Below are positions 1,501-52,329 of a DNA stretch of 64,000 nucleotides, in pieces (position 1 is the first letter of the stretch; the number at the start of each line of letters is the position of its first letter). The stretch lies in assembly GCA_044892505.1 (NCBI GenBank), contig CM097883.1, positions 80,848,001-80,912,000 of the forward strand, written 5' to 3'. This DNA comes from Schmidtea nova (taxonomy: Eukaryota). A program made the position numbers and the translations under genes. The notes under the pieces are model-generated. The model was not told where the DNA came from. It worked only from the letters and a program-made list of their open reading frames with translations, and made no database searches.

Positions 1501-3343
1501 AAAGTAAGTCATATTCGCAAACAATCGACATCTTGCCATAGGAAAAGAAAGATAAACAAACTGTATTAAATGGATAAAAGTTTAAAAGCAATTGAAGGCG
1601 GATATTACGAAATTATAAGAGCACCAAAAATAATAAGGGATCTCATATCAGAGGAGGAGGATTTGGTATTTTATTGAGAAGATTATTATTTAAGTGTACA
1701 GATCTTAGTATTCTGAGTCAGTGGAAATGAAATAATCTTTTATCATTCATTGTGATTCAAACATTACAGTTTTAAATATTTGACATTCAAAATATTTTAC
1801 TATTTATTAATTCTTTTATAAAAGAACAATACGAGTCAGATATGTCAACTGTTATTTATTTAATTAAAATAATTAAATTTAAACAAATTTACTTGTTGAA
1901 AAAGGTTTTTCATTATACGTTTAACAAAGAATGATTTTGAAGCGATCGATTCAAAGAAATTCTACATGTTTTGATGAATATTAACATAATAAAGAGATGG
2001 TTGGTTACAAATGAAAGGCAAGTATATGTTCGTCGTTTACCATCTTTGTCCCCTACCAGATCGTGGGCAACAAAGCAGCAGTTGTCAGAAAAATATGTGG
2101 CATATTTTTTATTGGTTAATGATTGTAAATTTTGATGGCAACACCCACTTTGAGGTTCTTATCCATGTAAGGAGATTCAATTCCGAAGGTATTTGAAATT
2201 CTTATCCCAATTGTTTGAGTATTCTCATATTTAGAATCCCATAAATCTTCTAGAACATTTTTGAGTATTTCTAAATGTTTTCATTAATTTGTTTCCAGGT
2301 AACTTTTTGTTTTTTAATATAATTTTTCTAACAAACATCTAATTCCTTTTTGTTATAGTTGGTATCTTCTCAATTCTGATTTTAAATAAACTTTTTGAGG
2401 CTTTCTTTGCGACTGTGTTGTAATAAAACAAATCACTGCAAATTTCGGTTCTAGCCTATAATATAAATTAATTTTATAATTTTATATTTTAATATCTTAA
2501 CAATAATTCTTTTATATATTAAAAGAGACATGATATTCTTTGATTATTAGGATTTCGGTCTGAATTAATTCCCGTATATAGAAATGAGCCTATTGGAGTA
2601 TCTTTGGTACCACCCCCTTTACTACTTATAAAAAATAGTAGCTAGTAGATATTCTTATTAGTAACCGTTATTAGTTATTTGTTTATAATTATTTAATTAA
2701 TAGTTTATTATCATTATAATTAACATATTGTTGGGCTGGCAAAATCGAAAAATAAATTTTGTTTAAAATTATAAAAAATTAAATTTATACAAAAGGGAAC
2801 AAGTTTAAAACTCACGATAAAAAATTACGCAGTAAAATAACGCAAAAGAAAATAAAAACAGTAAAGTACAATAGTAGTCAACTGAACTACATTCCATAAA
2901 ATGGTCAAAATAGGGTTAAAACGATAGAAAAGAGGCATCTCAAAAGAGAGCCCACGATTTGAGTGCAGGTCGTATTTACTCACGAAGGACCGCACGAGAA
3001 TTGAATGGGGAAGATCATTGCTTTTATAAAATTACGAAAGGCATGATCAAAGAATAAAATTAATATCTGGATAAAGAAAATAATTTATTAAAAATTATAG
3101 AAAAATACCCATTTAAATATCGGAAAAATAACAGAGATAAGAATAAAAAGAGAATTAAATTAAATTTGATTGTTTTAATTAATTAATTATTGCACAGAAA
3201 TAATGGATACACACATCATTTAACAGAATTAAAAACAAATCATTTAGAAATAAATACATCGGATTTACAAAAAATAAATAAATAATCATTTATTAAAAGC
3301 AATAAGTAAGTTTAATTGTTAAAATAATTATTTAAATAATAAC

Positions 3344-5975
3344 TATGGAATACAAATCCCGACGTTTTGCAAATCCCGGGATTTCGGGATCGGGAATCTT
3401 TCAATCCCGGGATCATGGGATCCCGAAATTAAATTAACCTTTATCCGATATCTATCCACATATTGTGATCCGCCTATGACATTTCATGGATGTTCACTCT
3501 TTCTTCACTTTTATTATTTTTGACTGAATATTATGAAGACAATGTCACTATATCAGTCTATCGATAAATAAAATAGTACATGAAACAATAGTAGCAGAAA
3601 AACCTTATTATATAAATTTTTAAAGGATTTTGACAAGGTATGTAATTTTATTATGTAACAAAATGTAACATGTTAATTAATTTTATTAAAAAAAGCCTTC
3701 AATAAACACAGTTTTGATAATGTCTCATCTCCGAGGCGTGATCTGATTTTTGTGAGGAATGAACCTCCAGCAGAAAACGGTCTCTCAGCATCTACACTGG
3801 TGGAGGAACACTCATCAATGCTTTGTGAAGAATTTCCACGTTGGCCAACAGTTCTAAATAACTCGAGCTCCCGTTGAATTGTTAACTTCATTAGATTCAC
3901 ACTGGTTGATGACATCTTTTGATGAACAACATGGTTATCTGTGCTCTTTTCCAAAGCAATGCGCAGACGTTCTACCATGCTGTTGGGGATTGTTGATGGT
4001 GGCGCATCCAGGGACACTGTAGATGGCAAAGAATCGGTGTCAGCTCCAGCTACTGTGACATTTAGTCTTTGCTCCAATTTGATCAATGTTATTTTCATCA
4101 TGTTGACTTCGCTTACAGAATCCATATTGCCACCATTGAAAGGCATATAGCCGCTGAGGTAAGTAAACTATGTCTCTCCTTCATGCGTTTCTTCAAACTC
4201 ATTTCAAGTTGGAACCCCAGTGCACTGTTTTGCAATTGGAGATCTTCGATTGCAAACTTCACAGCAGTTTCGGCCATAACTAAGGTACATCTCTGTCCAG
4301 AAAGGGTTTTCACAACCAGTTCCAGTGGTTTCAGGGCAGTCGTGATTTCTTGTTCCGTTTGAATGTCATCGTTTGTAAGTTGAATCTCCAGGCCTAAGAA
4401 GGCCAATGTCTTTTCTCATCGACTCTTTAACCTCTAGAAATCTTTTCAGAATTGCAATTAGGGAATTCCATCGTGTTTTGACATCCAAAACAAGGCATAG
4501 CTCTTTCCCAAGGTCTTCTTTGGCAAATCTTTGCAACAAATCATTCTTCACTGGACTTCTACGAATCAGCTTCACCATGTTACGTACTTTTTGATGACAG
4601 AATTTAAAGAGCCAAGATAAAATTCATTGGTGACTTCAACATCAATGCACACATCGAAACCGGCATCTTCAACGTCATCGGTAGAATTTCAGTCGTCATT
4701 AGATTGGCTACTTTCACTCTGCTCTGGTTCTGGTGCCGAAACGAATGATGATTTTTTGAGGTATAGAACATCGCAAACTGCTTAATGGACTCCATGGGCA
4801 TAACAAAGCTGGTGTTCGCAGTTCATCAACTTTCCAAATTTTACCATGACTGAAGCAGCATCAGTTGTACAGCAGATAACATCTGTTTTAATGTCCAGAT
4901 CAAATTGTGATGCTCTTTGAACAACCATTTCTTTGCATAATTCAGCAGTCATCGATCCTTTGATACGAGTGAGCCCTAGATGATGGACTGTTCTGTCAAA
5001 CATGTGAACATTGATGTTTGCATATCGCTTGTTGTTGACACCAGTCCATTCATCTACTGTAAGAGGGAATTTTTCACATTGCTCATGTCGTCGATACAAA
5101 TCTTCCTTTATTTGCAGTTCAATTTTCAAAGCGTAGTCCATTACCTTCTGTCTAATTGTCACAGCCGATAGGGGAACGTCCAATCATCTTGCTGCTAGTC
5201 CGGCCTGAATATCCTTTGAAGTAATGAAAACCTTGAATGGGAGTCCGTCTTTAGCTGTCATGTGCGCTAGAATTTCATCAAGGGACGGCTTGGAAACTGA
5301 AAAATATTCAGTTATTACTGGGATTTTTCGCTTCTTGCAGTCGGGCTCCTCCGAAACCTCGCGTTGAGAATGTGTTTCCCCGTTCGTTCTCAAGTCAATT
5401 TGGTGAATGGTTCTAAGGTGGGTTAAGAGGCCTTTAGTGGATCCACTTTTCGTGTTATTCTTCTTGAAGCACTTCTTGCATTTTGCTTCGTCCCTGTTTT
5501 CTTTCACAAAATATTGCCAGGCTTTTGACATGGAGGGCTGATATAGAATTTGAAATGCTAAAAATAACGTAAAATGAAATTATAAAATTCTTGGTAAATT
5601 ACTTGGTAAAAATGAAAATTGAAGTGAACAACTAAAGGCAAGTGTTAAATAAAACAGACCCACGCTTAAAAGTTCAATGAAACTAAGCCTTTATATAAAG
5701 TGGGATGAGGTGTGGGTGATTTCCCGTATAATAAAAGTATTTGATTATGTCAATGATTAACAATATATTTAAATTATATTGTTAAAGCTTGTTTATTAAA
5801 TCCTATATAAAATAACGAAATATAATTATTAATTTCAAACTAAAGAATGTATATTATTTTAATTAAACAATATTAACTACCGATCCCGGGATTAAATGTT
5901 TTTAATCCCGGGATTGGAATGACATGAGAAATAACCGAATCCCGTGATTTCGGGATCCCGGGATTATAAACCCTA
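3344..5975 (-). mobile_element. Near full-length hAT transposon nested in the solo LTR
   Basis: 8-bp TSD ATAATAAC (3336-3343 / 5976-5983). Ends TATGG.../...CCCTA. ATCCCGGGAT subterminal repeats at both ends. Confidence 0.9.
3673..5531 (-). pseudogene. hAT transposase with in-frame stop and frameshifts
   Basis: BED finger (AWQYF..AKCKKC..GSTKGLLTHLRTIH), LTVDEWT, TTDAASVM, CYAHGVH, DVKTRWNS and dimerisation motif SVDAERPFS..IRSRLGDETL. Confidence 0.92.
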
Positions 5976-7085
5976 ATAATAACAAATGTGAGTGTCAGTA
6001 AATTTAGTATAAATAGACGCAAAAAATCACAATTGAGTTAGTTAGTTATTTACACTTAGCATTAATTTCATTTTCACTAGCCAGTCGAGTGAGTAGGTAT
6101 GTTTTATTTTGTTTTGTTTTGTTTTGTCATGTTTTATTTTATTGGTAATTTGTAATAGTTGCTTGATTTTATTTGATTATGATTATTGATAATTTGTAAT
6201 AGATATTTGATTTAATTATGCTTATTCATAGTTTTGTTGTTATTATTTATTTTAGTTATAATAAAGTTTTTTGGTGTAAATATTTGTTCCATGTATTTGC
6301 GGGAAACCCTCATAATAGCCGGGGTACAATTCGTAAGGTGACGCCCATGTTGTCTCGTAATGCATAGGGGAGAATTAGCCTCTCGTCTTGACTCCTTTTG
6401 GAAGTTAGGCGATGCGACGACTTTGAACCAAATTTGGGCGGGAGAAAATGGGATTGCAAGGTGTATTCATCATTTTTTGGATGAATAAAAGTAGATAGAA
6501 ACAGTTTTTGAGATTGAATAGAGATAGATATGTTATAACATGGGGGTAATGGATAGTTAGGATGTAATTATGTGAGAGGACCGAAAAATAAGCAGATACT
6601 TAAGTCATTCTATCGGCAGCAAGAACCCAAAAGAGAGAATTTAGTGATGAGTAGTTTCGGTAAAGGACCTCACCTGCTCATTAGATTCTTTCACCGTGTA
6701 CAGTACCAACATAGTTACTTGGGGAATAACTATGGGCACATGAGTGTGGTAGATTGGTATGTTGCGGTATGAGTTGTATTAACTCCTAGAAATCATTTAT
6801 AATTTTTATAGCAACACCAATACCACCCAGCAATATTTATTAAATATTTTATCCTCTTTTCTAGTTACTTATACATTATTATAGAAAAATTATGAACATG
6901 ATAATAAATAATAACAAAAAATCAATTAGATTTCGCATTTATTCAATAATAAATATAGATAATGCAATATTAATAAAGATAATAATTTGATCTGCTAGTG
7001 GCTATGAACTTGATGATTAGTTGTTGACGATATTGGAGATTTCCATTATTCTGCAAGAAAATGCTTAATAATAGATAATTAACTA

Positions 7086-12900: not shown

Positions 12901-13508
12901 AAATTAAAGGTGAAAAAAATAAAAAAAAATAATAATATTATAATTAATTTAAATATAAAATCAAATCACAAATTTACTATTTAATATCAAATAAAAATTT
13001 TCGGGTGCTATAATAAATAATTTATATAAAATATAAAAATTTAAAAAAAAATTAAAGGTGAAAAAAATAATAATATTATAATTAATTTAAATATAAAATA
13101 AAATCACAAATTTACTATTTAATATCAAATAAAAATATTCGGGTGCTATAATAAATAATTTATATAAAATATAAAAATTTAAAAAAAAATTAAAGGTGAA
13201 AAAAATAATAATATTATAATTAATTTAAATATAAAATAAAATCACAAATTTACTATTTAATATCAAATAAAAATATTCGGGTGCTATAATAAATAATTTA
13301 TATAAAATATGAAAATTTAAAAAAATAATAATAATAATATTATAATTTTACAATATTATAATAATAATATAATTAATTTTAACCAACCTAAATCTTGTCG
13401 AAATTGTTTGAATTCTGAAGTGAATTGTTTAATGAAATCCAAATCAAATACCATAGATTGATCCAATAAGATATTCGAGGGTTCTTGTTTATAAGTCGTT
13501 GAAGGGTT
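9968..13508 (-). CDS. Divergent POU-homeobox transcription factor. Exons 13508-13388, 10555-10152 and 10105-9968; 5' exon(s) unresolved
   Basis: GT-AG spliced, phase-consistent, stop-free frame. POU-specific domain DLDFIKQFTSEFKQFRQDL|GVTQSEVGISMKYYLKSDFSQTTICRFESMVLAPTNMFELIPYFRKWI. Homeodomain RKQRIQYTRLQFKKMENLFQTVQ|HTQITQHVFKKYAKELKLSEKQIRTWITKRRR. Introns of 2.8 kb and 46 bp. Confidence 0.9.
11428..11835. mobile_element. Tc1/pogo-type MITE in the POU intron
   Basis: TIRs CACCTATCCCCCGTTTTACACGG / CCGTGTAAAGCGGGGGATAGGTA with TA flanks. Confidence 0.85.
12210..13330. repeat. Tandem array of 8 units of 138-149 bp in the POU intron
   Basis: Anchor CGGGTGCTA at 12267, 12409, 12557, 12705, 12853, 13002, 13140 and 13278. 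Confidence 0.95.
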
Positions 13509-25688: not shown

Positions 25689-26923
25689 TTAATAAATAAT
25701 TTTAATTTGTAGCCTTACTAAAAAATACTGACTGACTGACTGACCTTGTTGATATTTACGTGCTTAGAGTCGAGCAAGTGTCGTTCAGTTCTCGCTTGCA
25801 TATTTCCGCTGAAACACGCTCGAAGAGAATTGTTTATAAATGATTCAATATCAATAAAATGCATTTTAAATAAAGAAGAACATGCTCAAAATGAAAAACT
25901 GCATTAATTTTACTTTGATTTTGACTTATAGTTCATTATTACACAGTTTTAATCCGGGGTAATTTTGTACACCGTACTGTTCTCGAGGTATCGGCACTCG
26001 AAGGGTAACAAAAGTCAGCAAACGATGATAGTATAAAAGACGACGAACTAGAACAGTGAATTTAGATCATGTGAACATCTTATTTATTTTTATTTTGTAA
26101 TAAGCTGTCTAATAAATGTAAACTAACTGCGGTTTGTTTGCATTTTTCTTTTGTTTGGATAATGTTAAATTCATTGACTTTTGTTTAGTAACGGTTAGTT
26201 TAAAGTCAAGGGATATAATACAGACGCCACTTTTCCATAGTGGAATCTTAAGCTAATTGAATAGACCCTAAGGAATTACCTGTACGTCTCTATTTCGGTT
26301 TTCAAGTTCTGGATACCTTTGTCTGCTCGTAATAGTTTAAATCGGGCGGCCTACACTTTAGTCGGAGAAAAATACTGACTTTAACTCAATGATGCGGAGC
26401 TTCAACCGCCCATTATTTTTCCAGTGGGTAGATAGTTACTTTCCTTGGTGGATTTCAGTTTCGTTCTGTTAATGAATATAATTTACTACGTCTTGTGTAG
26501 TAAACAAAATATTCTTTATCAGTCATTTTGCTACTCTTACCGCCTGCCTTTCACAGTTAGTGTTCTACGTTTATCATCTATCACTACAAAATCGGGAAGA
26601 CTGTGTTCAGATCTTTGTCGCGAAGAATTTTTGTCGCCGGCACCAAGATTGATTCTTAACGTCAGTTGGTTCCCCGTCATCATTTTTATTTTTACATAAC
26701 AATTTTTGGGACTATACTAAACTCTAACCCCTACTTCAAAGACGAATTACCACGAGTGGCTAGTATCAACCATTAACTGTAGCTAAAAATACTTCTCACT
26801 AGTTAAATATCTATTGAGTAAACGGTGAATAATTCCCGCCTAAACCGTACACATTGTTGAACATTACTTAATTAATGCTTTTAATATTTACAATAAAAAC
26901 AGTCAATCAACAAAAAATCATAT

Positions 26924-27365
26924 TTAACACAAAACAATTATTAAATAGAGGGATACACAATGAGATAAATTAGAATGTTCAGTTTTCCTAGGTGCATATA
27001 TAGAGTTGATTTTGTTCGGTCTAGCTCGACTCGGAGGGACTGCTGGCTGGCTGGAGGGTGCTGGGCTAAATACAAATCGGCCAATTTTAAGAAATTCATC
27101 GGTAGTAATAATATTCGAACGGATGAAATTTCGACCCGGAATATCACTAGTCGACTCCACAAAGAACTTTGGGCAATCAGCAAGATATTGGCAGTCCACA
27201 TCGATTAGCCAGGCTTGGCTACCATACCATGCAACCTCGTCCGAGCTATCACGGAACATACTGAATGGTGACAAATGCTCGTTGATGTTCGGCGACTATT
27301 TCGCTCACCAAGTCATTAGGGATATGTTTCTAAGGCATCGCCAGGATGGGATAATTGTCGTACAT
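26924..27365 (-). pseudogene. LTR-family small ORF type A (WxIDVD family), one stop plus a frameshift
   Basis: AG acceptor at 27374-27373 and ATG at 27365. MYDNYPILAMP*KHIPNDLVSEIVAEHQRAF..PFSMFRDSSDEVAWYGSQAWLIDVD..FVESTSDIPGR aligns with the ORF at 29832. Confidence 0.7.
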
Positions 27366-28362
27366 TGAATCACTAAGTGTAGAATTGACGTTGTTGAAAT
27401 TTGTTAGAATCTTTACTTTAACTCCTCCGAGATCAAGATTTTTGAAGTAAAACATCCTTATATATGTTCTTAATAATATAATTATGGTAAATTTATTACT
27501 ACTTTGCTAGAATTGCTCTTACTAATTTGAATAACTACGTATTAATTTAAAAATTTCGCTTTTTTAAAGTGATTATTTATCGTTGATAACCGGCAGACCT
27601 ATTTATTGGATGTTTCAGAAGTAGGGGATAGTAAGGACTCTGGGCCACTTTTTTCACATAGCAACGGTTGCTAGGTTGGAAAAGATAACTCTGTTGCGTT
27701 TCGGTCGGAATTGAAAGTAACTATAAAATTTGATGATAATGATATCATTATTATCGATTCCCGATCAAAGAATAGCGGTGTAGTCAAAATTGGTTTCGAC
27801 AATTAAAATCAATTCACAAAAAAATTTTTTTTTAATTAAAATTTATAATTTAGTAATTAATAATTTAGTATTGTTATTAAGGGAAATTTTCTTATGTTAT
27901 TTGTAATATCAAAAAAAAGAAATTTTAAATTAGTAAATTACTATTATTATTAGTATTGGTACTCATATCTTTATGAGTTTAGAGAAACTGTAATTGTTAT
28001 TATTATTGTTGTTATTATGCTATAGTTATTAGTACTGTTGGGTTAGTACAAAGATAAATTAAAGACATATCAAACAATTAATCAAAAAAGGGATAAGATA
28101 TAAGAGAAAACATTAAAAGAATAAAGAAATAAGAAAAATAATCAGTAAAGAAAAATAAGCCAATTAAAACAAATAAATGAGAAGGAAACTCAATCAAAAA
28201 CGATATAAACGCGAAATTAAATAGAAAATTAGAAATAACAAGAAGCAAAGAAAATAAATGTAATTAATAAAAGGAAATAAGAAAATAATAATGAGAATAA
28301 GAAAAAAATAAAATAACACAATAAACTGGGTCATTGGACCAATAGGAAAATAGCTCGATTCT

Positions 28363-28431
28363 GATTGGCTGCCTGAGCCTCGATTTCACTATATAAAGAA
28401 GTGCTCAGGACAGCAGAATTAATGTCATTTT
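28363..28431 (+). promoter_or_regulatory. LTR Pol II promoter: inverted CCAAT, TATA, initiator-like TTAATGTCATTTT
   Basis: GATTGG at 28363, TATATAAA at 28390, TTAATGTCATTTT at 28419. Same order and spacing at 54847-54916. Confidence 0.7.
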
Positions 28432-29831
28432 ACACTCGAGCTAGCAATTTTATCCCACACACTTATTTCAATTGTTCGACAACACTCGGAGGAAGAATCA
28501 TCCTAATTGTGAATCTTGATCGGAAAACCATTGCAAGTATTCATGTTACTGTTTAAATACAATTTTATGCCGATAATCATACTTGTTTTCATGTGTTTAT
28601 TATGCTGCATAGATAATGAGAGGGTCGCCGCGATCTCGTGGTTGCCGGCTCTCCAGGGCGAACTGTCCCTGTTTCGTGTCTCGACACGGGGCGGAGATAG
28701 GTTGCTCTATAAAGACCTTTTCATAATATAGGCAGTGAGTGAAGGGTGAATGTCGGAAAACAGGTAGTAGCGTTCCGGAATCCTTAGAATTAATACAAAC
28801 TTTCAGAAAGAGCGATATGAGAGTGGTAGTAATAATAATCAGTTCAACGGTAATATCCCGCCATCCAAAGTCGAAAAATGATTAATTAGGAAGTCCCCGA
28901 AATTGCGAAGTTGCAGCTGGGAACAAATACAAAACTCTAAACCGTCAATTTTTTCTCTATAACTACGTAGGTACGATAGCGCGAGAATTGTCTAAACGCC
29001 GTAAATTTGCAGATATCCACTGAATATACTAGGCAGTACAATCCCTTTATTTTCCCGGTTGATTTCGATATGAAACTTTAACGAAAGCGTAATTTACTAA
29101 ACGAGTCAGATTTTCTACAATTTCATCAGCGTTAGTCATATGGAGCCGTCTCGTATAAACCAATTAACAAGAGAAAGTTGACGTAGGCAAATTTCTTCCG
29201 GAGTAGGGGATAATTTCTTACCTGAACAATCGATGAATGCAATAAATAGTCAAACATCAGAGAAGAGAGAGAATAGTTTCGCGTATTAAAGTAATGAGAG
29301 TTAATGTTGGGTTGGGGAAGCTAATGGCCGGAAACCAATTAATGAGTGACGGCGTGCGAGTGGTGTAAATTTTTAATGACCGGAGATGGAGTGATGGAAA
29401 ATAAATAATTAACATGAGGGAGAGAATCGTTTTCAAACCAACCCAACATTTAAATAATCACGAAACCAATTCTAAAGTTTAAGAAATTTTTACGTCACAA
29501 AATAAATCTAAGGTTATTACCATTTAACTTAACCAAAGTTGTAGAGACGGCAGTGAGTATTATAGACATAGTGAAGCCGTGTTGTAAGAAATTCTGACTA
29601 TTAATAGGTAAATTCTAATACTAACAGTTAGTAAATGTTGAACACCATGTACACAGACGCCGAATAGTTAAATAAGATAACTATTTTCAGTACGAACACA
29701 AATTAACTACGAGCGATTCCAATTATCATTAATTGCGTCGATACAAACTTAAGTTGACCTTGAGGGCCCATGATGTTAATATATAATCAATATGATATAA
29801 ATATATTTGAATATGTAGAATCGGTCCTAAC

Positions 29832-30281
29832 ATGTTCTACACTGGCTTACAAGTCCGAGGAGCGAGGGCGGAGTCGTCGACGATCCATGCATCTACAACC
29901 AACCACAATGTACACGACAATCACTTGATTTTATTTATACCCCTCAAGGAAATCCCTACAGAACTAGCCAGAGAAATTTTCGCCAAACATCGAGCGGAAT
30001 TCGAGCGAACGGGGGCCATCCTTCCTTTTAGTTTATTCAAAGATAGCCCTTCCGAAATCATCTGGCATGGCAGTAAGGAGTGGCCGATCGATGTGGATCG
30101 CCCTTATTGGCCCAATCAAGCGAGCTATTTCGTGGAGACTCCCACTGAGATCCCAGGGAGATTTCAAGTATATTTCAAAGGCGAGATACCCAAAGCCGAA
30201 TTTCTGACACGGGACGATTTGTGTTCGCTCCCGCTCCAACGACAAGCCCTACTGACTCTCCGTTCAGCCCCTCGACGTTAA
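29832..30281 (+). CDS. LTR-borne small ORF type A (WPIDVD family), unknown function
   Basis: Open 149 codons. Homologous relics at 26924-27365 (-) and 61760-61955 (+). Confidence 0.6.
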   Translation: MFYTGLQVRGARAESSTIHASTTNHNVHDNHLILFIPLKEIPTELAREIFAKHRAEFERTGAILPFSLFKDSPSEIIWHGSKEWPIDVDRPYWPNQASYFVETPTEIPGRFQVYFKGEIPKAEFLTRDDLCSLPLQRQALLTLRSAPRR

Positions 30282-30758
30282 GTGAATCTGATGAAAGCTA
30301 CAACGACGCTAAAATCCTCAAGGAGGACTAAATTTTAAATGTGTTGCATCTGTAGTCCGTTAAAATTATATGTTTGGGTGTTGTTCAATTGTTCTTGATA
30401 AATTAAGTGTTTTAGTACAGTTACAAGAATAATTACAGTAACCAGTAATACACCATAAACATAAATGAATTACATCGTGAGATAAGAAATAATAACGATA
30501 GAAATCTCAACTAGGTATGAATAGACTGAACTTCTATAAAATAATAAATAAAGGAAAGCACATCTTATAATAAGTCGGAACAAGTTAGACGGGTCCGCCC
30601 CAGGAATGAACACCCAAGGGAAATCACATAAAATGATTGATGAAAAGTAGAATAACTTTTATGAGAACCGAGTAGGAGTCGCCTAAGAATCATCCTTGTT
30701 ACAGTTAAACATAATCATGCTGTTAGGATTTTATCTTTCTTTCTTCATATAGGAAACT

Positions 30759-31173
30759 ATGGCTATCAACGAAAAGACAATAGGACAATTAAAGAGACCT
30801 CAAGAGCAGTTATTTTTCACCGGCCGAAATGAAGAGATTAAATGAAAAATTGATAAGAGCGGCCCAGGTGGTACAAGATCAGAAGAAGGAGATAGACGCG
30901 TTGAAGATCGAATTGAAGAACTGTCAATCGATCATAACGGAAAGATTTATAGCCGTAAACTTGAGAGAATTGATTCCCCCTATAACCTTGGAGAAATGGT
31001 TTTCTACGCCGGATCAGTCAGCACGTACAGACATTGAGACGACGACAATTCAGCCGCCAAAGCGAAGACGACGGAAATCGCCTGCGCAACGACGCCACCA
31101 GATAAAGTTGAAGTTAGAAATCGAAACGACCAAAGTAACTATCGGGATGGACGTCGACCGACCGATTGCATGA
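30759..31173 (+). pseudogene. LTR-borne small ORF type B (coiled coil plus basic tail); +1 frameshift near 30790
   Basis: Polypyrimidine tract and AG at 30751-30752, ATG at 30759. RDLKSSYFSPAEMK..QKKEIDALKIELKNC..LRELI..TLEKW aligns with ORF 56658. AATAAA at 31216. Confidence 0.7.
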
Positions 31174-33170
31174 AGACTCAGAACCATTTGTGTATTATGA
31201 TTGTAATGTGATGGGAATAAATACATGTATATATAAGGTCTTGTTGTTGCTTAGATAAGTTTTATTTCCAAATAAAACTAGTAATCATAATTGTACGGAA
31301 TAAACCATTGTTGAGTGAACTAGTAAAGTGTTAGAAAATAAGGTAGCCAGTAGGAACTCGTAGAGTAGTAGCGAAAGGGCAAGTTAAGAAATATTAAGCG
31401 AACACCCGAAATTAGTGACCAGCGCAGGGTGAGAGGAAATAGAATAAGACCTTCTATCGGTCAAGTGAGAACCCGAACGATGCGACAAGTCAGGAGTAGT
31501 TCTTATAAAGGAGCTCACCTGCTGACTTGCGATCGGCTGTTATGCACATTTCCAACGTGAATGATTAGGGTAATTCACGGGTGCATGAACAGTAAAGCTT
31601 TTATGTGTGTGTTGGACCCTAGAGAGCAAGGAAGTGTAGTTCAAGAATATGAAGTGCAGTAGACATAGAGAGGTAGAAAGCAACTTTAGGCTTTGATTTT
31701 TATTACAACACACCAACAGTACTATTATTAATATTAATTTACATTAATAAATTATTAAATTATTATGTTTCTTTAAGAAACTTTCTTATTATGTTTAGTA
31801 TCGTTATCAAATTACTATTACTGAAATATTATTATTTTTTTGTAAATAGAAAAAGAAAATTGTAATTAATAAACTATTATTCAATAATTTTTTTTATTAT
31901 TGAAAATTTTAACCCATTAATATTATTAGTAACGTTAAATTTCGGCGTTAATTATTTTATTTATTATTATTATTAGAAATTTTATTAATATATAAATAAA
32001 TTTTTAATAGTTAAATTTTGCATTAGAATTTTGAATTTGGCTTGCTATAGCAAATTTCTGTAGTAAGCCAAAATACAAATGAAAAAAAATCGATTTCTAA
32101 CAAAAAAAATAATTACAAGATTAAGCTAATAAATGAAGGTTTCTGTCAATTCCTTTTGGGATAACTTAATAGAGTAAAAAAATTATTCTACTCCACGAAT
32201 TTGGGGAAGTAAATTTTCTTACTGGGCTCCTGTCCTACAACTAATTATCAATTGTTTTCCATTTTGAAATTTCGAATTACCCTATCATCATAAGCGACAA
32301 GGTTGGATTCTGTCATAGGCTAAGAATCAGTTATTCACCAAGTCAATCCCCAAAGAAATATTTCTACCGATATTAAAGATTCAATTAAAGATTTGTTACT
32401 TATCCAAGAGGATTGGAAAGTAAATTACAAAGACAATCCCTAAAGAAATTATTTCGCTGAATTAAAGTAACTTCGTGGTTTTAGAACTCATTTAAAAACA
32501 TTTTCTTCTGAATATAACTTTTTTAAATAATTAATTTGTTATAATACTTTGTTGTTATTTGGTTACAGCATTCACAAATACACATGCACCCAGGCACACA
32601 AAAATATAAACACTCACCCCAAGTGATTCCACATAACTTTCAAGAGACTCTCTTGGGCTTTGCCACTTCTTCCATACAACACACTATATCTCAACCTATA
32701 TAAATACATAAATACCAATAGAAAAATATTGTATACCAACAACGTGTAATAAAATTACACTTCCATTTTATTTCATCAATGTGGCACTTATGGTTTTGTT
32801 ATTTCAAATCCTTTTTGCATTTTTTAAAGTAATTAGAGTAATTTCACTGCTGTATATGTTCGAGTCCTTTGAATTTAAATAATTTTTAATTGAAAAACAT
32901 ACTTTGAATTGATGACTTCATTTCCGATTAATATTGCTTTTATGATTGTCATTTATTAATGGGCACATCAATGCCATACAAAGATATTTATTCTTTAAAC
33001 GATAAATGCCACAAAAGATTTTATTTTTTATAATCAAATTTATAACCAAATTCCATTTAAATGAACTTTGAATAAAGAATTTCTAACTTTTTTCAAACAG
33101 TATTTTACTTTTTACATTTTCTTTCTAAAAACCGTGGATGGTGTAAAAACAATCCAACCGTTGAAAATAA

Positions 33171-34001
33171 TGTCTGGCTAACACAACAATAAATTATAAG
33201 GATAAATTGTCCATTAAAAAAAAATTTAAAAAATAGAAATTAAATAAAACAGAAAATAAAATAAAAAGGGAATTAACGATAAATATAGACAACAAGAGAA
33301 ATAAAATTAAAAATATTACCACCAATTAATGAAAAAGAGTAGATATTTAAAAAAGAATAAAAAAGGAAAAATTCCAGAAAACAAACAAGGAATAAAATAA
33401 TAATAAGGAATTTAGAATTAATTAATTTAGATGATTCTTTCAATCACTTTCCACAAGTGGTGTGCAGTGTCTCCTGAACAGGTCCAAATATGTGAAGTCA
33501 CGTAAATTCTACCACCCCAAAAGACTAAACGTTCTCACCTAATTGCGAAGAAGAGAAAGATCAGACAACGACGTGAAATTCTATTCGATCAACAAGTGAC
33601 TAGACACTTAGAATATCTAGAAAATCTATTTGAATTGGACTTATTAAATGAAATACTTCACTTGTGAATGTAATTGTAAATAAAAAGTTCTCTTTTATAA
33701 TTGTTATTCATAGAAATAGTCGTGTTAAATTTCTTTGTTTTCAAATTCATCACAGTAGTAAGTTAAATAGTTTAGGTATATAAGACGAGGAGTGTATCAG
33801 TTGGAGAAGAAGTGATAATTAGCCAAAATTTGAGACCAGTTTGGCGAGAAAGCAACATTAAATGTCTTCTATCGACATAAGTGAACACGTTTGTAGGAAA
33901 TTAGTAGGGAGTAGTCATAGTAACATAGCTTACCTGTAAACTAGTTCAAAAGGCCCTAACGCACATTACCAACGTGATTATTTACACGGATAAACTGTCC
34001 A
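33171..34001 (+). mobile_element. 0.83-kb solo LTR of the same broad family
   Basis: TG...CA ends with ATAA on both flanks. TATA near 33778. Shares the 3' motifs CTTACCTG and GCACATTACCAACGT. Confidence 0.6.
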
Positions 34002-35934: not shown

Positions 35935-36915
35935 ATGAAAATAAAGCGCAATTCAAGTATTCCTTTAGTCGACAATTTGACGGAGTTAGTACGAATGCCA
36001 AGAAACCGAGATATCCTTGGAAGATTTGTAAAACTAAGAACGGATTTGAAAGAAAGAGGCAAACGGATCTCGTTTATAACCGAGGAACTGCAGCATTTAT
36101 GGAATAAGTTTAGCTTTCATACTGTGTCTAAGCCTTTGACTTTAAAAAAAAGTTTAAAAAATTGTTGGAGAATACGAAAGCAATAGGCGAAGAAAATCAT
36201 CAAAGTTTCAAAATAAGATGAGTACAGTTTTTAATATTACAAAGACAGATGGCTTATGGCTCAGTAGTGAGGATAAACTATTTTACAAAAGCCAAATAGA
36301 ATCTGGAGGACAAGTAGGGTATGCCACAAGAAAACCAGCACCACTCTCAAGTATTCATCCATCAAGGAGAGCATGTCTTATACAATCTAAAGCTACTACT
36401 TCAGATGCAGTTCCTGAAACAAGCAATAGCGATACCAGTGACACTGACAGTCAATCACTAAGTGCATATTCAAATACCTCTTCAAGCTGCAGCTCGTCAC
36501 AATTAATATACAACAGCACTTCATCTGCGAGCAAATTTGTAACTCAAAACTCGTTGTCAACGCACCAGGCATTGAAAGTCTGCAAGAATTTATCTGCCGA
36601 AGGGTTTACTTTGCCTACTCCATCACAAAGTGGTGTATGGCGCAGTGTTATTAAAGCTGGGGAGAAAGAAAAGAAAAAAATAAAAGCAATCCTTCGAGAC
36701 AGAACCAGTTATTGCTTACATTTTGATGGTACAAAGATTTCCCAACCAGAATATGAAGAACGGCAAATAAATTTGGGAATACTGAAATGCCAAAGCGGCA
36801 AAGCGGAAGATATTTATAGAGAATTGAAATCTTTAATTGATGAATTTGATGCTTGGCGACATATTACGATGATTATTTGTGATACCACTGCTGTCAATAC
36901 TGGTCACCGTGATGT
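35935..36915 (+). pseudogene. Decayed DDE transposase, hATm-like
   Basis: YCLHFDG.. followed by MIICDTTAVNTG matches the hATm HWDG / DTTxxNTG signature. N-terminal DGLWLSSEDKLFYKSQIE. Truncated after the second D. Confidence 0.6.
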
Positions 36916-38537
36916 TGCTATGGCTCACATCAACAACTCAACACATAAAACATTAGATAAACCATCTTGTTGCCCGTCACAAGTAACGTTGGTAATGCAA
37001 CAAATGGGTGGGTATTCGCAATCAGTGAGCGTCGAAAATTCGAAATTATGATTGACCGAATATCTCCTGGGTCCAAGGACTACTGATAGAAGGTTTAGCA
37101 AAATAAAACAGATTAGATGAATAAATTTTATTAATTTGTCCCAATCAATCATGGTAGAAATCAAAATCTAGATAGTTCAGAGCATCATTCCAAAATTATG
37201 TCCAAATACACATACACAAGCCATGAACATAATAAAATCAATTCAAACATTTGAAGCGTTCCAGCAATCGTTCCTGCTTTCGATTTTCCAATATCGATTA
37301 AAGTGATCACCAACTTTTTCAAATAAACCTTTTCCCTTAATTTTCTGATCAAAATCTAGCATTTTCGCACTTTTAGTTTATTCCCAAGCTCATATTCAAA
37401 CATACCATCGCAACTCAATTCGGGGAATTAAATATTCCTTCGAAAATACATATATTCGGGGTAATTAAGCGGTATTATCCTATTTAAATTAACTATTATT
37501 TCTATGGTTTTTCAAATTCTGGATTTTTATGTTTTTAATTTACTTAAAACTCTATCTAAATACTACACTTAGTGTCTATATTGCGTTGTAAATTATTTTT
37601 AGCATTTTGTCGAAATTTTTGTTTTCAAATTTTTAAATTACCGCTGAGGCATTAGCAACAGAAATTGGAAAATTTTCATATATTTTAGTAATTTTTAGGC
37701 CTTATAATTATATATAAAATTTCCAATAAACTGAATTGTTATTGACATTTATATTCTCGGCGAATACCCCCCTTTTGATTGATTAAATTAGCTAAGTCTA
37801 TTATTATTCAACTATATTTTTATTTCAGGCGACACTAAAAATAGTGCAACCCGATTGGTTGGTTTTCTGATATTATATATCTATACATACTGTAAATATT
37901 TATTTTCTAGATTTATTTTATCTTTCGGAATTCCTACTAACTGCAGGTAAATTAAAAAATTTAGGATTTTATCTCGTTTATTCATTTCTTTTCTTTTACA
38001 TAGAGCGCAAACAGGGCACCACTGGTATTCGGATCGTCGACTGAAAATCCTCAAATGCAAATTTCTCACCCAATATCAAATTCAGACTTTTTTCAATTTT
38101 GTCCCTAAAAAATCTCGGATTTTTCGCAAAATTGATTTAATATTTTTGCATCAAATTTTAAATAAACTTTAAATAATTTATTTTTGATCTAAAATTTTAT
38201 TTTTAAATCAAAGTTTTTCTAATTTAGTTTAATTTACCAAAATTTTAACTAAAACCGTTTTCTTTCATATATTTTGAATTTTTATGCTTAAAATAGAAAT
38301 TTTCCTTCTAAAGTTGTGTTAAGTTTTTCTACTTTATTATTTTATTGCATAATTGGTGTTTTTATGTTATATGTGTTTTTCATGTGTATACTTAATGCGC
38401 TTTGGTTCATTTTAATTTTTAAACGTGTTTTATTTAATTATTTATGTGTTATGTTATTACTGTGTTTTACTTGGTGTTTTTCTCCATCGTATTTTAAGTT
38501 TACTTCGTGTGCGCTCTCTACATGCTGTATTACCGCG

Positions 38538-40622: not shown

Positions 40623-43237
40623 ATGCCTCAATATAGGCAATTAAAGATTAGCAATTCTTTGAAATCGTCAACATCTGATTTATTCAAACCATTGCAAATG
40701 GATGAAAAATTTAAAAATACCATATTAAACTACAGTATACGCAATATCATAAAACCAGGTATTCGAGGTATCCTAAGGCGTATTGGGGTTTTAAATGCAA
40801 ATACTTAGGATGCGTTTGCATTACAAGTTGGAACTTCCGTTGGAAAATATTTAGGAGCGTTAAACGTTAGTAATTATGTTGATCCACTGAAAACTTCTAT
40901 TAAAGACCATTTAAAACCGTATGGAGATCACGAAAGATTAGGTTACAATTCATTATCTAATCACGATGGCTATTTAGAAATTACAGATTTTTATAAACAT
41001 GAAATAGATTTAAATTCATTCAGTATTTATCAGGACAAAACCTTACAAAATTATTATGAGCCTAACCGTTTTAATGATCATAATGACCTATTTGAAATTA
41101 TGGAAATTAGGATCCCAGGCATTAGTTTATATAATGGCCTCAGACTACTGGAAAAACTATTATTACGGAATGGCAATAAATATAGTGATATGGTAGAATT
41201 GTTAAACTCAGACCAGTTAAATAAAGGCTTTCTAGCTGAAAATCCAGGTTTATTAAAACAATTAAAAGAATCAAGCGAAAACATAAAAAATAAAAAACTC
41301 ATGTCAATAATATGTCTAAAATTATGCAGCAGAATTCGAAAGTATTAAATATGTTACAAAAATGGGAACACAATACACCTGACTTTCGGAATGTATTACC
41401 AAAATTGCTACATATATACTCAAATATATGGTATCATAAAAATAAATCCGAGAACACTTATATGATAAGAAAATAAAAAACGATCCTTTTACTGACCAAT
41501 CGTTACATATACTTAAACATAACAGTGTAAATAGGTTACAAACCCGAGAAGAAATTTATAAAAAAATTGACAGTTATCTACGTCTTTCTCATGATCAAGA
41601 TCCTGATACTTCTGTACATCCCAAATAACCTAAGCCGCAAGATATGAAGAGGCGAGTTAATTACATATAATTAATTTTTTGCGATATTATTACCACAATA
41701 ATCATCATAATAGTGTTACCCATACTGAATGGAAGCAGTTAGCTAATAATTTAATACAACCTTATGATAAAATAGTTAGTAAAAAGAACATGGACATGTC
41801 TACATTAAATCGATTTGATCATATTAAAATGACTGAACATTTATTGGACACCCATGCTAAAGGGGTAAAGAAATATAGGCACTCAAATACAAGTATAAAA
41901 GCGTTTGATAATCTATTTGGGAGCAGCAACAAGGAGATTTCAGGCCACAACTCGGAAATGACAGTCTTGAATTCATCAGTACCAATTGCGGAGCTAGTTG
42001 CATCAGTACCACCGAACAAGGCGAATGGTATAATATTCCAGTCGAATATCCTTACCCTCATATCATGTATGGTAATCCAGACTCATGAGCTGCTATGCAA
42101 AAATATTTGCGGTGGAAACCGAAAAATATACATTTTGAAATATTCAATATTCAAGGTGTTGGGGAAACCTCTCCACAAAATTTTAATGGATTAGAAAATC
42201 AAGTTGAAATGTTGGTTCTCAGAGATAAAGCTCATATCTATGGCCCGTGTACTATGCCAGAAAATAAAGCAAAAGCGTTTAAAGACCTTTTCTTAAATGA
42301 AGCATTTTCGCATAATGGTTATAATGTAAATAATCAATTATCTAAATTAACTCCCCAGAAATTATCAAAAGCAGGTTGGATATATTACCCTGAAACTTGT
42401 CCAGAGGTTAAAATAGCTAACTGTAATACAGGAGAAACAATAGAATACAGTTATGAGTCTAGCAAAGTAAAATATCCTCGTTATATTGTTGAGTGAAGGA
42501 ATCAACATTATGATCTTAAAACTTTTAAAGACAATGATCCATTGTATTGGCATAGATGGGATTATTTTAATTGCAAAGTAGTGAAACCATTCTCATATAT
42601 GGGCGGACTAGACAGTCGGACTATAAATACTATCAATAGAACGGTTCCATTCCCTTTGAAGATACGCTATCACAAATGGGCTAGAACGTGGAATGAGAAG
42701 CTTAAACGACCAATGTATAAACATGGAGAAACGGAAGTTAGTCTTCATCACAAAACTGTCCCTACGGATAAAGATTTAGTCGATGACTATTTTACCCCTA
42801 AAAGATTATATCTGGATGAATTTTTCAGTGTAAACGCAGCCAAGGATATTTCGGAACATAATCCCATGTCTCAATTATTTATAAAATTAAATACTATGAT
42901 AGGACCTCAAGGTAATCAGATCAACCTTACTTGTACTTTTAATTGGAAAATATCTTATACTAATGAAATGTACGGGAAATTACCAACTATAAATATTCAT
43001 CAAATATATGATGTTACAGATAGAACTGCTCAGTTTAATCAGCCTTAGCAACCTATAACAAAATGGATGACACCGTCTATATTTTATTGTATGCATGTGT
43101 ATTACTGGATTAGAGATGAACTATCTAAAGATGATTATTTATTATCCATGATCAAACATAATGCAGCAAGATTCAAGATACCATCTAACATTTTGTATCA
43201 TATGCAAGCAAGATTAGGTCAACCTAATCCCTTGTAA
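40623..43237 (+). pseudogene. Endogenous parvovirus/densovirus-like capsid (VP) gene with several stops and frameshifts
   Basis: PDS*AAMQKYLRWKPKNIHFEIFNIQ parallels parvoviral [47 protein letters not shown] parallels PPPQILIK..VSVEIEWEL. One frame from ~41910 to 43237 with stops at 42086, 42494 and 43046. AATAAA directly after the final stop. Confidence 0.75.
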
Positions 43238-51600: not shown

Positions 51601-52329
51601 ATTTATTATCCGAATAAAATTTAGTAAGTCTCTCGAAATTAGAGTTGTCGGTAAAACTAAGATTGATTAAGTAATTATGTTATTACAAGCTGGTAGTAAA
51701 GTATGCAGTGGTAAAAACCAAAATTAATGCTGCTCGCCACTGATTTAGCGTCAGTATTTATACTATTCTGGTCTGTCGGGTCAACCAATCATATTCGACT
51801 TACCACCTAATGCGTGGTAAATTATTTATCTTTAGATTTTCCGTCTGCTGGATCGGTATTGAGACATATGGTCATAAGTCATTTGTTCATAGGACAAATG
51901 GCCATAGCCATTTAGTCATATTGACTTTTGGTCGTAAGACGAACGCTCATATGACAAATAATCAAAGGACAAATGGTCACAGGGCAGATGTTCATAAAAT
52001 AAATAAATTTCAATATTAACATAATACTGTTTATATATTATTGGTTACTCATAATAAGTGTTTTGTATAGTATTGTCATAAGTGGATTATTTTCATAATA
52101 AAGGAGTGGTTAATTATTTATAATTTGTCTTTACTTTATAGATTTATTTTACTAAACAAAATAAAACGGCTGAAATAATAAAATAATGTTTTGTACATTA
52201 TTGTCATCAGTGAATTGTTTTCCTATTAATTGCATTGTTAGTTATTTATAATTTGTTTTTGCTTGATAGATTTACTTTACTTTAATAACACAATACGAAA
52301 AAATAATTGTTGGAATGGATAGACAAGGT

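What the first reader, a model, noticed from the sequence alone, without database searches (positions are those of the whole stretch)
28036..31718. Giant solo LTR organised as a cassette of separately spliced and polyadenylated mini-genes
Seen: a 3.7-kb TG..CA unit with a 4-bp TSD and no gag/pol. It has one CCAAT/TATA/Inr promoter followed by successive 100-170-aa ORF units. ORF-B has a strong acceptor 6 nt before its ATG and AATAAA ~40 nt after its stop; ORF-A has an AG 13 nt before its ATG. The diverged 3.2-kb unit at 54473-57643 has the same layout, while short relatives (0.77, 0.83, 1.47 kb) lack the ORFs. Established: 4-bp TSD plus TG..CA is the Gypsy integrase signature, and LTRs are normally non-coding. 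Inference: this lineage keeps a variable set of accessory genes inside the LTR, expressed by alternative splicing and polyadenylation from a shared leader, so even solo LTRs would be expression cassettes. This is the best candidate for an undescribed system here.
Basis: partly seen in the sequence, partly recalled or inferred. Interest (0 to 1): 0.88.

Follow-up and report, generated by a model that had tools for sequence, protein, structure and literature searches.

The report
Giant retrovirus-like LTR carrying genes
This is a decayed lone end-repeat of a giant Burro-type jumping element whose end-repeats carry one or two protein genes kept by selection plus a conserved RNA fold, likely spliced from the repeat's own promoter and likely acting as an HIV-Rev-like switch for the element's full-length RNA.

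Summary
The 3,683-bp unit is a real solo LTR (TG..CA, GTAC duplication). Relatives flank 13-28-kb Burro-type gypsy elements (gag, in-frame fusion protein, PR, RT, RNase H, integrase, ankyrin, TRAF). The LTR reading frames are genuine genes: changes shared between copies give dN/dS 0.10-0.16. ORF-B (coiled coil, then an Arg/Lys-rich stretch) is a core gene, open in 23 of 40 primer-site-linked LTRs; ORF-A is optional. Neither has a database relative. Promoter, one splice donor, acceptors and a poly(A)-like signal keep their places across very divergent subfamilies. A roughly 150-nt RNA structure near the LTR's 3' end shows strong covariation and no Rfam match. Best model: short spliced LTR mRNAs make a Rev/Rex-like protein that licenses unspliced genomic RNA. 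New variant of a known family; two primary Burro papers could not be read.

The parts
28036..31718 (+). Solo LTR of a Burro-type giant gypsy element, flanked by the 4-bp duplication GTAC (28032-5, 31719-22)
   Evidence: relatives flank internal domains
28036..28420 (+). A-rich U3 (inferred) with CCAAT boxes (28339, 28364 reversed) and TATA (28390)
   Evidence: ATTGG 26-28 nt before TATA in 13 of 14 representative LTRs; composition
28425..28429 (+). Initiator-like TCATT, inferred start of transcription
   Evidence: sequence; same position in several subfamilies; no RNA test
28533..28538 (+). Splice donor position; reads GCAAGT here, GTAAGT in relatives
   Evidence: 8 of 8 aligned relatives GT; one donor motif 92-218 nt after TATA in 13 of 14 LTRs, background 0.09 per 240 nt
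29817..29818 (+). Candidate acceptor for ORF-A (TGTAG, TA-rich, no pyrimidine tract)
   Evidence: AG kept in 19 of 22 aligned relatives; strict test met in 2 of 6 representatives
29832..30331 (+). ORF-A, optional LTR gene (~165 aa in relatives, Trp/Pro-rich core, acidic tail); frame shifted near its 3' end in this copy
   Evidence: shared-change dN/dS 0.11; alignment A1; no homolog
30751..30752 (+). Candidate acceptor for ORF-B, with pyrimidine tract
   Evidence: 7 of 13 representatives pass a strict test, 21 of 392 background ATGs
30759..31173 (+). ORF-B, core LTR gene (coiled coil, linker, Arg/Lys-rich stretch); broken by a frameshift in this copy
31216..31249 (+). AATAAA plus GU-rich tract, candidate main poly(A) site (R/U5 border if R is long)
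   Evidence: similar hexamer plus U/GU tract 355-573 nt from the LTR end in 15 of 17 representatives (score 13 or more); AACAAA or GACGAA variants in many relatives
31450..31591 (+). Conserved structured RNA element near the LTR 3' end: two stems, one with an 8-nt CCAA bulge
   Evidence: 20 of 26 pairs compensatory, 0 of 500 shuffles; z -3.27; no Rfam match
54473..57643 (+). Second, divergent solo LTR (duplication TTTC): TATA 54875, donor 54969, acceptors 55795 and 56656, interrupted ORF-A and ORF-B, ATTAAA 57215, RNA element from 57411
2729..6832 (+). ORF-less 1.46-kb solo LTR relative (duplication ATAT) with a hAT-like insert at 3344-5975; keeps TATA 6008, donor ~6097, acceptor-like AG ~6254, AATAAA ~6259 and the RNA element 6599-6819
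26250..27400 (-). Fragment of a further LTR relative with ORF-A (26927-27295) and a remnant read by eye as ORF-B
   Evidence: ORF-A profile E 1e-13; sequence

Best explanation
The unit is a broken solo LTR of a Burro-type giant gypsy element whose LTRs carry selected protein genes downstream of their own TATA box, likely expressed as short spliced mRNAs, with ORF-B likely a Rev/Rex-like dimeric RNA-binding protein that would let unspliced genomic RNA pass the LTR's splice and poly(A) signals. Shown: LTR status, parent elements, purifying selection on both ORFs, neutral decay of old copies, conserved order promoter-donor-(acceptor-ORF-A)-acceptor-ORF-B-poly(A)-like signal-RNA structure-primer site. 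Inferred (about 0.8): a ~130-nt leader exon is spliced to either acceptor and the RNA ends after ORF-B, so the transcribed part of the LTR is 2-3 kb and R may be about 2.8 kb. Inferred (about 0.45): genomic RNA must keep this intron and read through that site, and ORF-B, predicted to form a parallel coiled-coil dimer with two basic arms, would bind the structured RNA, which lies behind the poly(A)-like signal and so would occur only in read-through RNA. Each subfamily keeps its own fast-diverging ORF-B, as a sequence-specific protein-RNA pair would. Solo LTRs would make these proteins while young and then decay.
For: Parent elements: two LTRs 7 differences in 3,593 nt, duplication CTAA, primer site; gag, Monjiviricetes fusion, PR, RT, RNase H, integrase, ankyrin, TRAF/MATH. 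LTR-end plus primer-site pattern 221 matches, control 0. Selection: shared changes dN/dS 0.16 (ORF-B, 28 copies), 0.11 (ORF-A, 25), 0.10 (ORF-B of a second family, 15); third codon positions vary most, e.g. 58/42/139 of 196. ORF-B open in 23 of 40 primer-linked LTRs, broken or partial in 7, absent in 10; present in all 3 elements found with pol and kept in a pol-less family with 99.75% identical LTRs. RT is 90-94% identical between subfamilies whose ORF-B is about 15-35% identical. A stretch with 7-10 K/R in 16 residues in 26 of 30 aligned ORF-B proteins, the other 4 being cut before it. Helical model, pLDDT 76.7; homodimer score 0.56, best of 3 controls 0.00, runs agree in at least 95% of contacts, pLDDT 83; mark reached by 17 of 29 eukaryotic dimers and 0 of 30 monomers, possibly by likeness to solved coiled coils. 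Donor in 13 of 14 LTRs. RNA covariation. Hexamers with a strong U/GU tract: 1 of 71 in the internal region, 0 of 10 in U3, 2 of 13 in the rest of the LTR. Precedent for a spliced Rev-like protein in a gypsy element: CERV of Cer1 (PMC10309623, abstract and passages).
Against: No RNA evidence at all. No processed or intron-less copy: 2 pattern searches gave 1 unrelated match and 0; the one large deletion found among the copies compared, and one in a 5' LTR, lack GT..AG ends. A leucine-rich export signal, defining for Rev, matches a loose pattern in only 12 of 30 proteins and at no conserved place. No sequence or fold likeness to Rev, Rex or CERV. The RNA element is also kept in ORF-less LTRs, which fits a packaging or priming signal equally well. 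A second hexamer just behind the donor in two families allows a short R with the genes in U5. Only 7 of 13 ORF-B and 2 of 6 ORF-A acceptors pass a strict test and the representatives are related. The non-coding control for dN/dS had only 4 copies (0.75). Coiled coil plus basic stretch also fits DNA-binding regulators.
Confidence: 0.45

Rival explanations
1. Same spliced LTR genes, but they are host-modulating cargo like the element's TRAF, RING and ankyrin modules; the structured RNA is simply the packaging, dimerisation or primer-activation signal read by Gag or RT.
For: The RNA element sits just before the primer site and survives in ORF-less LTRs; Burro elements carry many apoptosis and ubiquitin domains (PMC6431247, passages); internal accessory ORFs share the AG-before-ATG layout; no conserved export signal.
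Against: ORF-B is kept in every pol-bearing element seen (3 of 3) and has a conserved basic stretch; no host-protein homology.
Confidence: 0.25
2. ORF-B is a transcriptional activator or anti-silencing factor (Tas-, Tat- or VANC-like by function, names recalled) that binds its own subfamily's promoter DNA or nascent RNA; the short LTR mRNA is the early transcript of a positive loop.
For: Predicted dimer with basic arms; subfamily-specific retention even without pol; promoter sequences differ by subfamily.
Against: Basic region lies after a disordered linker C-terminal to the coiled coil, unlike bZIP order; no fold match to a DNA-binding family.
Confidence: 0.2
3. Topology and processing rival: R is short (about 200 nt), ending at the hexamer just behind the donor; U1 binding to the donor suppresses it in the 5' LTR as in foamy viruses; the genes lie in a giant U5 and may be released by spliced-leader trans-splicing rather than cis-splicing.
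For: AATAAA 540-625 nt into the LTR in most copies of one family and variants in the window's family; foamy precedent (PMC3694450, abstract); retroviral R is 15-250 nt (PMC12789967, passages); internal 3' ORFs are spaced 97-134 nt with AATAAA between, like operons; flatworms have SL trans-splicing (search listing).
Against: No hexamer behind the donor in three LTRs of another family; the single site of the ORF-less LTR resembles the post-ORF-B site in context and distance from the end. Compatible with the best explanation's protein function; about 0.4 on its own axis for short R, 0.1 for trans-splicing.
Confidence: 0.4
4. One reading: solo LTRs are maintained as working expression cassettes, useful to the host.
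For: A solo has every cis signal; 9 of 29 window-like copies still have an open ORF-B and 12 of 29 an open ORF-A.
Against: Private changes are neutral: pN/pS 1.11 (ORF-B) and 0.85 (ORF-A), Fisher p 9e-18 and 3e-22 against shared changes; the window copy has 0 synonymous and 9 non-synonymous private changes in ORF-B, frameshifts and a GC donor.
Confidence: 0.05

Closest known systems
Burro / GYPSM1 giant gypsy elements of planarians (PMC6431247, passages read)
   Same: Size class, huge polyprotein with fusion glycoprotein between gag and protease, ankyrin, MATH/TRAF either in the polyprotein or as a separate ORF, multi-kb LTRs.
   Different: The passages read mention no genes inside the LTR. 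BIR, Bcl-2 and dUTPase were not detected in the two elements scanned. No direct sequence comparison was possible.
Rev / Rex / Rem with RRE / RexRE / RmRE (PMC12789967, passages read)
   Same: Small protein with an Arg-rich stretch and predicted oligomerisation, predicted spliced mRNA, structured RNA in or near the LTR.
   Different: Whole gene lies inside the LTR behind the LTR's own promoter; long coiled coil; no conserved export signal; no homology; binding untested.
CERV of C. elegans Cer1 (PMC10309623, abstract and passages)
   Same: Gypsy element, tRNA-Pro-type primer site, lineage-restricted protein with zipper and basic motif from a spliced mRNA; needed for export of genomic RNA.
   Different: CERV is 517 aa and encoded by internal exons; Cer1 LTRs are 492 bp and non-coding; no homology found.
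MMTV sag / rem exon 2 and HIV nef in U3 (PMC12789967, passages read)
   Same: Protein-coding sequence inside an LTR, duplicated with it.
   Different: Those lie in U3, upstream of the promoter, and are read from the 3' LTR; here the genes lie downstream of TATA, so a lone LTR is a whole transcription unit.
Foamy virus LTR with splice donor in R (PMC3694450, abstract)
   Same: Donor upstream of a poly(A) signal in both LTRs.
   Different: No ORFs or acceptors in foamy R/U5; R is short.
Ogre and Retrosat2 plant gypsy elements (PMC6431247, PMC3485330, passages)
   Same: LTRs over 3 kb, extra fast-evolving ORF of unknown function under selection, many solos.
   Different: Their extra ORFs are described as internal, upstream of gag-pol, not in the LTR.

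Membership tests
Ty3/gypsy LTR retrotransposon | Two LTRs with TG..CA ends, target duplication and primer site | tested here: met
   duplications CTAA and AAAG
Ty3/gypsy LTR retrotransposon | Order PR-RT-RNase H-integrase | tested here: met
   two more elements
Burro | Fusion glycoprotein in frame between gag and protease | tested here: met
   PF24664 E 3e-76 before RVP in one frame; gag to PR in one 3,133-codon frame in another element
Burro | Giant size (internal region up to 25 kb) | tested here: met
   internal region 22.6 kb and 18.1 kb
Burro | MATH/TRAF, RING and ankyrin modules | tested here: met
Burro | BIR, Bcl-2-like and dUTPase-like modules | tested here: inconclusive
   not found by Pfam in the pieces of two elements scanned; the published calls used HHpred
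Burro | RT clusters with Burro1-4; planarian host | not tested
   no Burro sequence was at hand; host inferred from architecture and 30% GC only
Rev/Rex-like export system | Arginine-rich RNA-binding motif | tested here: met
   7-10 K/R in 16 residues in 26 of 30 proteins; sequence feature only
Rev/Rex-like export system | Oligomerisation | tested here: inconclusive
   predicted dimer 0.56 against 0.00; a model, not a measurement
Rev/Rex-like export system | Leucine-rich nuclear export signal | tested here: inconclusive
   loose pattern in 12 of 30, not conserved in place
Rev/Rex-like export system | Structured response element present only in unspliced or read-through RNA | tested here: inconclusive
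   structure shown by covariation; its place relative to the RNA end is inferred
Rev/Rex-like export system | Protein binds the element and exports unspliced RNA | not testable with these tools
   needs bench work
Rev/Rex-like export system | Made from a spliced mRNA | not testable with these tools
   no RNA run offered

The most novel reading that the evidence does not exclude
A gypsy lineage has packed a complete early regulatory operon into its LTR: promoter, leader exon, alternative terminal exons and poly(A) site form an R region of about 2.8 kb, ten times any retroviral R, encoding an independently evolved Rev-like protein whose response element is a new structured RNA in U5, so that every young solo LTR regulates full-length elements in trans.
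Probability: 0.25. Interest if true: 0.9.

Novelty: new variant of a known kind. Interest (0 to 1): 0.7.

Why it matters
LTRs of gypsy elements are treated as non-coding, and annotation tools drop solo LTRs as inert. Here whole genes under strong selection sit behind the LTR's promoter in hundreds of copies, so solos can be protein-producing units for a time. It offers a testable answer to how a 25-30-kb retroelement gets an unspliced, intron- and poly(A)-laden RNA out of the nucleus, supplies two new protein families and a new structured RNA, and bears on Burro's reported role in planarian stem cells (known to me only through PMC13465017, passages): knock-downs aimed at internal domains would miss the LTR genes.

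Tried and rejected
RNA test: no RNA holder listed; the four runs laid are contigs with even depth over flanks and unit and no GT..AG joint among the 15 of 34 joints shown, so they behave as DNA and say nothing on expression. Processed copies: (1 match, an unrelated gene; 0 matches); deletion ends not GT..AG. Homologs: ORF-B none (Pfam only weak coiled-coil hits; PDB only coiled coils at E 0.017 or worse; Atlas under 0.9); ORF-A none. ORF-A model pLDDT 46.7, fold search uninformative. The divergent ORF of two LTRs (L038, L068) matches ORF-B only weakly (hhalign probability 37, E 4e-4): counted as ORF-B-like by position and layout, homology not shown. One apparent LTR pair (C1:237.95-237.98 Mb) is a 15.9-kb segmental duplication, not an element. 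The stretch upstream of a close 3' LTR held only 0.9 kb of internal sequence. DNA transposon and chance-ORF readings rejected. Rfam: nothing in the LTRs of 6 loci. Earlier findings: none. Literature: ten searches showed no report of genes inside Burro or other gypsy LTRs in what I saw (listings, plus passages of the papers cited); Grohme et al. 2018 and Lee et al. 2026 were not held, nor their supplements; from recall, unverified, Grohme et al. showed transcription data for these LTRs, so short LTR transcripts may be in print.


Full report
1. The observation. The unit 28036-31718 starts TGTTGGG, ends CCAACA and is flanked by GTAC on both sides; 54473-57643 is flanked by TTTC. The frames, however, are damaged. 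The ATG behind acceptor B opens 28 codons; against relatives this copy has an 11-nt deletion there and a 1-nt deletion near the end of ORF-A. Its donor position reads GC where 8 of 8 aligned relatives read GT. Unit 2 has stops in both frames. The 1.47-kb relative is 2729-6832 minus a hAT-like insert; the 0.77- and 0.83-kb ones were not located.

2. What it belongs to. A search of the 1.25-Gb genome gave 1,499 candidates, 40 scored, 61 matches at 69-100%; unit 2 gave 1,743 candidates. The LTR-end motif occurs 325 times (control 55). Three same-strand pairs in the first 100 listed places were fetched: one is a segmental duplication, two are elements. One has 3,593-nt LTRs differing at 7 places, duplication CTAA, primer site TGGGGGCTCAGCCGGGAT (tRNA-Pro type by comparison with Cer1's TGGGGGCCG in PMC10309623) and gag, fusion protein, protease, ankyrin, TRAF/MATH but no RT or integrase. 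The other, duplication AAAG, has gag, Monjiviricetes fusion protein, PR, RT, RNase H, integrase and ankyrin, with a frame break after gag. Both carry ORF-A and ORF-B in their complete LTRs, 70-78% identical to the window unit; closer relatives include a 3' LTR at 84-89% and a primer-linked 5' LTR at 80%. This is the Burro architecture described in PMC6431247 (passages read), above all the envelope between gag and protease. No direct comparison with Burro sequences was possible. Of 22 window-like copies checked for both ends, 5 have a perfect 4-bp duplication, 2 a 3-of-4 match, 1 a primer site, and 14 could not be classed in the stretch fetched.

3. Breadth. The LTR-end plus primer-site pattern has 221 matches (some doubled; control 0). 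I fetched 40 of the first listed places. Their LTRs fall into many DNA-divergent subfamilies of about 2.5-5.2 kb. ORF-B is open in 23 of 40 (21, plus 2 of a divergent type), broken or partial in 7, absent in 10; ORF-A is open in 5, broken in 5, absent in 30. Ten elements were followed 20 kb downstream: two have the full domain series, with stops; one, of the commonest subfamily in this sample, is 13 kb, lacks envelope and pol, has 99.75% identical LTRs and keeps ORF-B; the seven chosen for lacking ORF-B show no gag. So ORF-B is a core gene, ORF-A optional. RT is 90-94% identical between elements whose ORF-B is about 15-35% identical.

4. Are they genes? Yes. Median pairwise dN/dS: ORF-B 0.16 (319 of 378 pairs usable, 28 copies), ORF-A 0.18 (207 of 300, 25 copies), ORF-B of the second family 0.10 (80 of 105, 15 copies); spacer control 0.75 (6 pairs, 4 copies). 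Changes shared by copies give 0.16, 0.11 and 0.10. Changes private to one copy give 1.11 and 0.85 in the window's family (p 9e-18, 3e-22) and 0.17 in the younger, primer-linked family. Third positions vary most in all four sets. Selection thus acts while elements replicate; inserted copies, the window's included (0 synonymous, 9 non-synonymous private changes in ORF-B), decay. Among 29 window-like copies ORF-B is open in 9 and ORF-A in 12 by a lenient test.

5. Expression signals. In 14 representative LTRs ATTGG stands 26-28 nt before TATA in 13, and one donor motif 92-218 nt after TATA in 13 (the window copy is the exception; background 0.09 per 240 nt). A strict acceptor test is met before the ORF-B start in 7 of 13 representatives against 21 of 392 other ATGs, and all 13 show an AG within 14 nt of a start; for ORF-A 2 of 6 pass. 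The representatives are related, so these are not independent trials. A hexamer with a U/GU-rich tract lies 355-573 nt from the LTR end in 15 of 17; such sites are rare elsewhere (1 of 71 hexamers in the A-rich internal region). A second candidate lies just behind the donor in two families. ORF-A is followed by a GU-rich tract without canonical hexamer in the window's subfamily. The ORF-less relative keeps donor, acceptor-like AG, AATAAA and RNA element, so the genes look like terminal exons added to an intron-bearing LTR. None of this was tested on RNA: the runs offered behave as DNA and no processed copy was found.

6. The proteins. ORF-B: two long helices joined at a conserved (W/Y)FSP kink, an LIRPIT..W motif, a disordered linker, then a Lys/Arg-rich stretch and a hydrophobic tail. 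Residues 1-116 are predicted to form a parallel dimer (0.56, best control 0.00; contacts agree at least 95%, pLDDT 83; on eukaryotes 17 of 29 dimers and 0 of 30 monomers reach the mark, possibly by likeness to solved coiled coils). No conserved export signal (12 of 30 loose matches). ORF-A: Trp/Pro-rich core with acidic tail, low-confidence model. Neither has a relative in any library searched.

7. The last 270 nt of the LTR hold a motif found in 34 of 40 primer-linked LTRs, both window units and three more places in the window. In 22 sequences 20 of 26 predicted pairs change on both sides; 92.6% of cells pair, 0 of 500 shuffles reach the score, slid controls pair 29-48% (relatedness inflates the shuffle test and the structure was derived from this alignment). 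One stem carries an 8-nt bulge ending CCAA. No Rfam match.

8. Mechanism. Reverse transcription must start from an RNA that keeps the LTR intron and passes the site after ORF-B, while the LTR genes need spliced, early-ending RNA. Complex retroviruses solve this with Rev, Rex or Rem (PMC12789967, passages) and the gypsy element Cer1 with CERV (PMC10309623, abstract and passages). A dimer with basic arms, made from the short RNA, and a structured element lying only in read-through RNA fit that logic, as does retention of a subfamily's own ORF-B without pol. I put this at 0.45; host-modulating cargo with the RNA as packaging or priming signal at 0.25; transcriptional activator at 0.2. Whether the genes lie in a 2.8-kb R (about 0.6) or in U5 behind a foamy-like short R (about 0.4; PMC3694450, abstract) is open; retroviral R is 15-250 nt.

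9. Novelty. The element family is known; coding LTRs are known in U3 (MMTV sag, HIV nef). Whole genes behind the LTR's own promoter, conserved across subfamilies, were not seen in ten searches, but the two primary Burro papers and their supplements were not held and may describe LTR transcripts. Verdict: new variant of a known kind, interest 0.7; the particular window copy is a decayed pseudogene-like solo LTR.

Noticed in passing
L015-L016 (G000:C1:88366850-88370931) and L109-L110: The 3' accessory ORFs (120 aa, TRAF, 428 aa, 213 aa) are spaced 97-134 nt, several with AATAAA after the stop and an AG 2-3 nt before the ATG: operon-like, perhaps trans-spliced or alternative last exons.
   Followed up: partly
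L039 with L109-L110 (G000:C1:20.144-20.161 Mb): The commonest subfamily in the primer-linked sample is, in the one copy followed, a 13-kb non-autonomous element keeping gag, TRAF and other accessory ORFs but not envelope or pol, plus a 153-aa ORF just behind the primer site.
   Followed up: partly
L016 ~4130-4142; L007; L110: The tract before the 3' LTR is not a plain polypurine run but AAGGGGTCCCCGAGTG, a short palindrome conserved across subfamilies.
   Followed up: no
window 3344-5975: hAT-like DNA transposon with 8-bp duplication ATAATAAC inserted in the ORF-less LTR; transposase fragments on the minus strand.
   Followed up: partly
window 36906-37097 (-), 33866-33985 (+), 51562-51816 (-): Further fragments of LTR relatives: two copies of the RNA element and one CCAAT/TATA promoter.
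   Followed up: partly
L029-L030, L033, L061, L034: Polinton/Maverick-like elements (protein-primed polymerase, integrase, 4-kb inverted repeats) often sit in or beside these LTRs; labels read by eye from translations.
   Followed up: no
window 12164-13382: Tandem array with a unit of about 148 nt, 86-94% alike.
   Followed up: no
window 42095-43048: ORFs that read like a small single-stranded DNA virus capsid fragment (by eye); not searched.
   Followed up: no
L039:8-105: Palindromic flank scoring below threshold to mir-31; probably chance.
   Followed up: no
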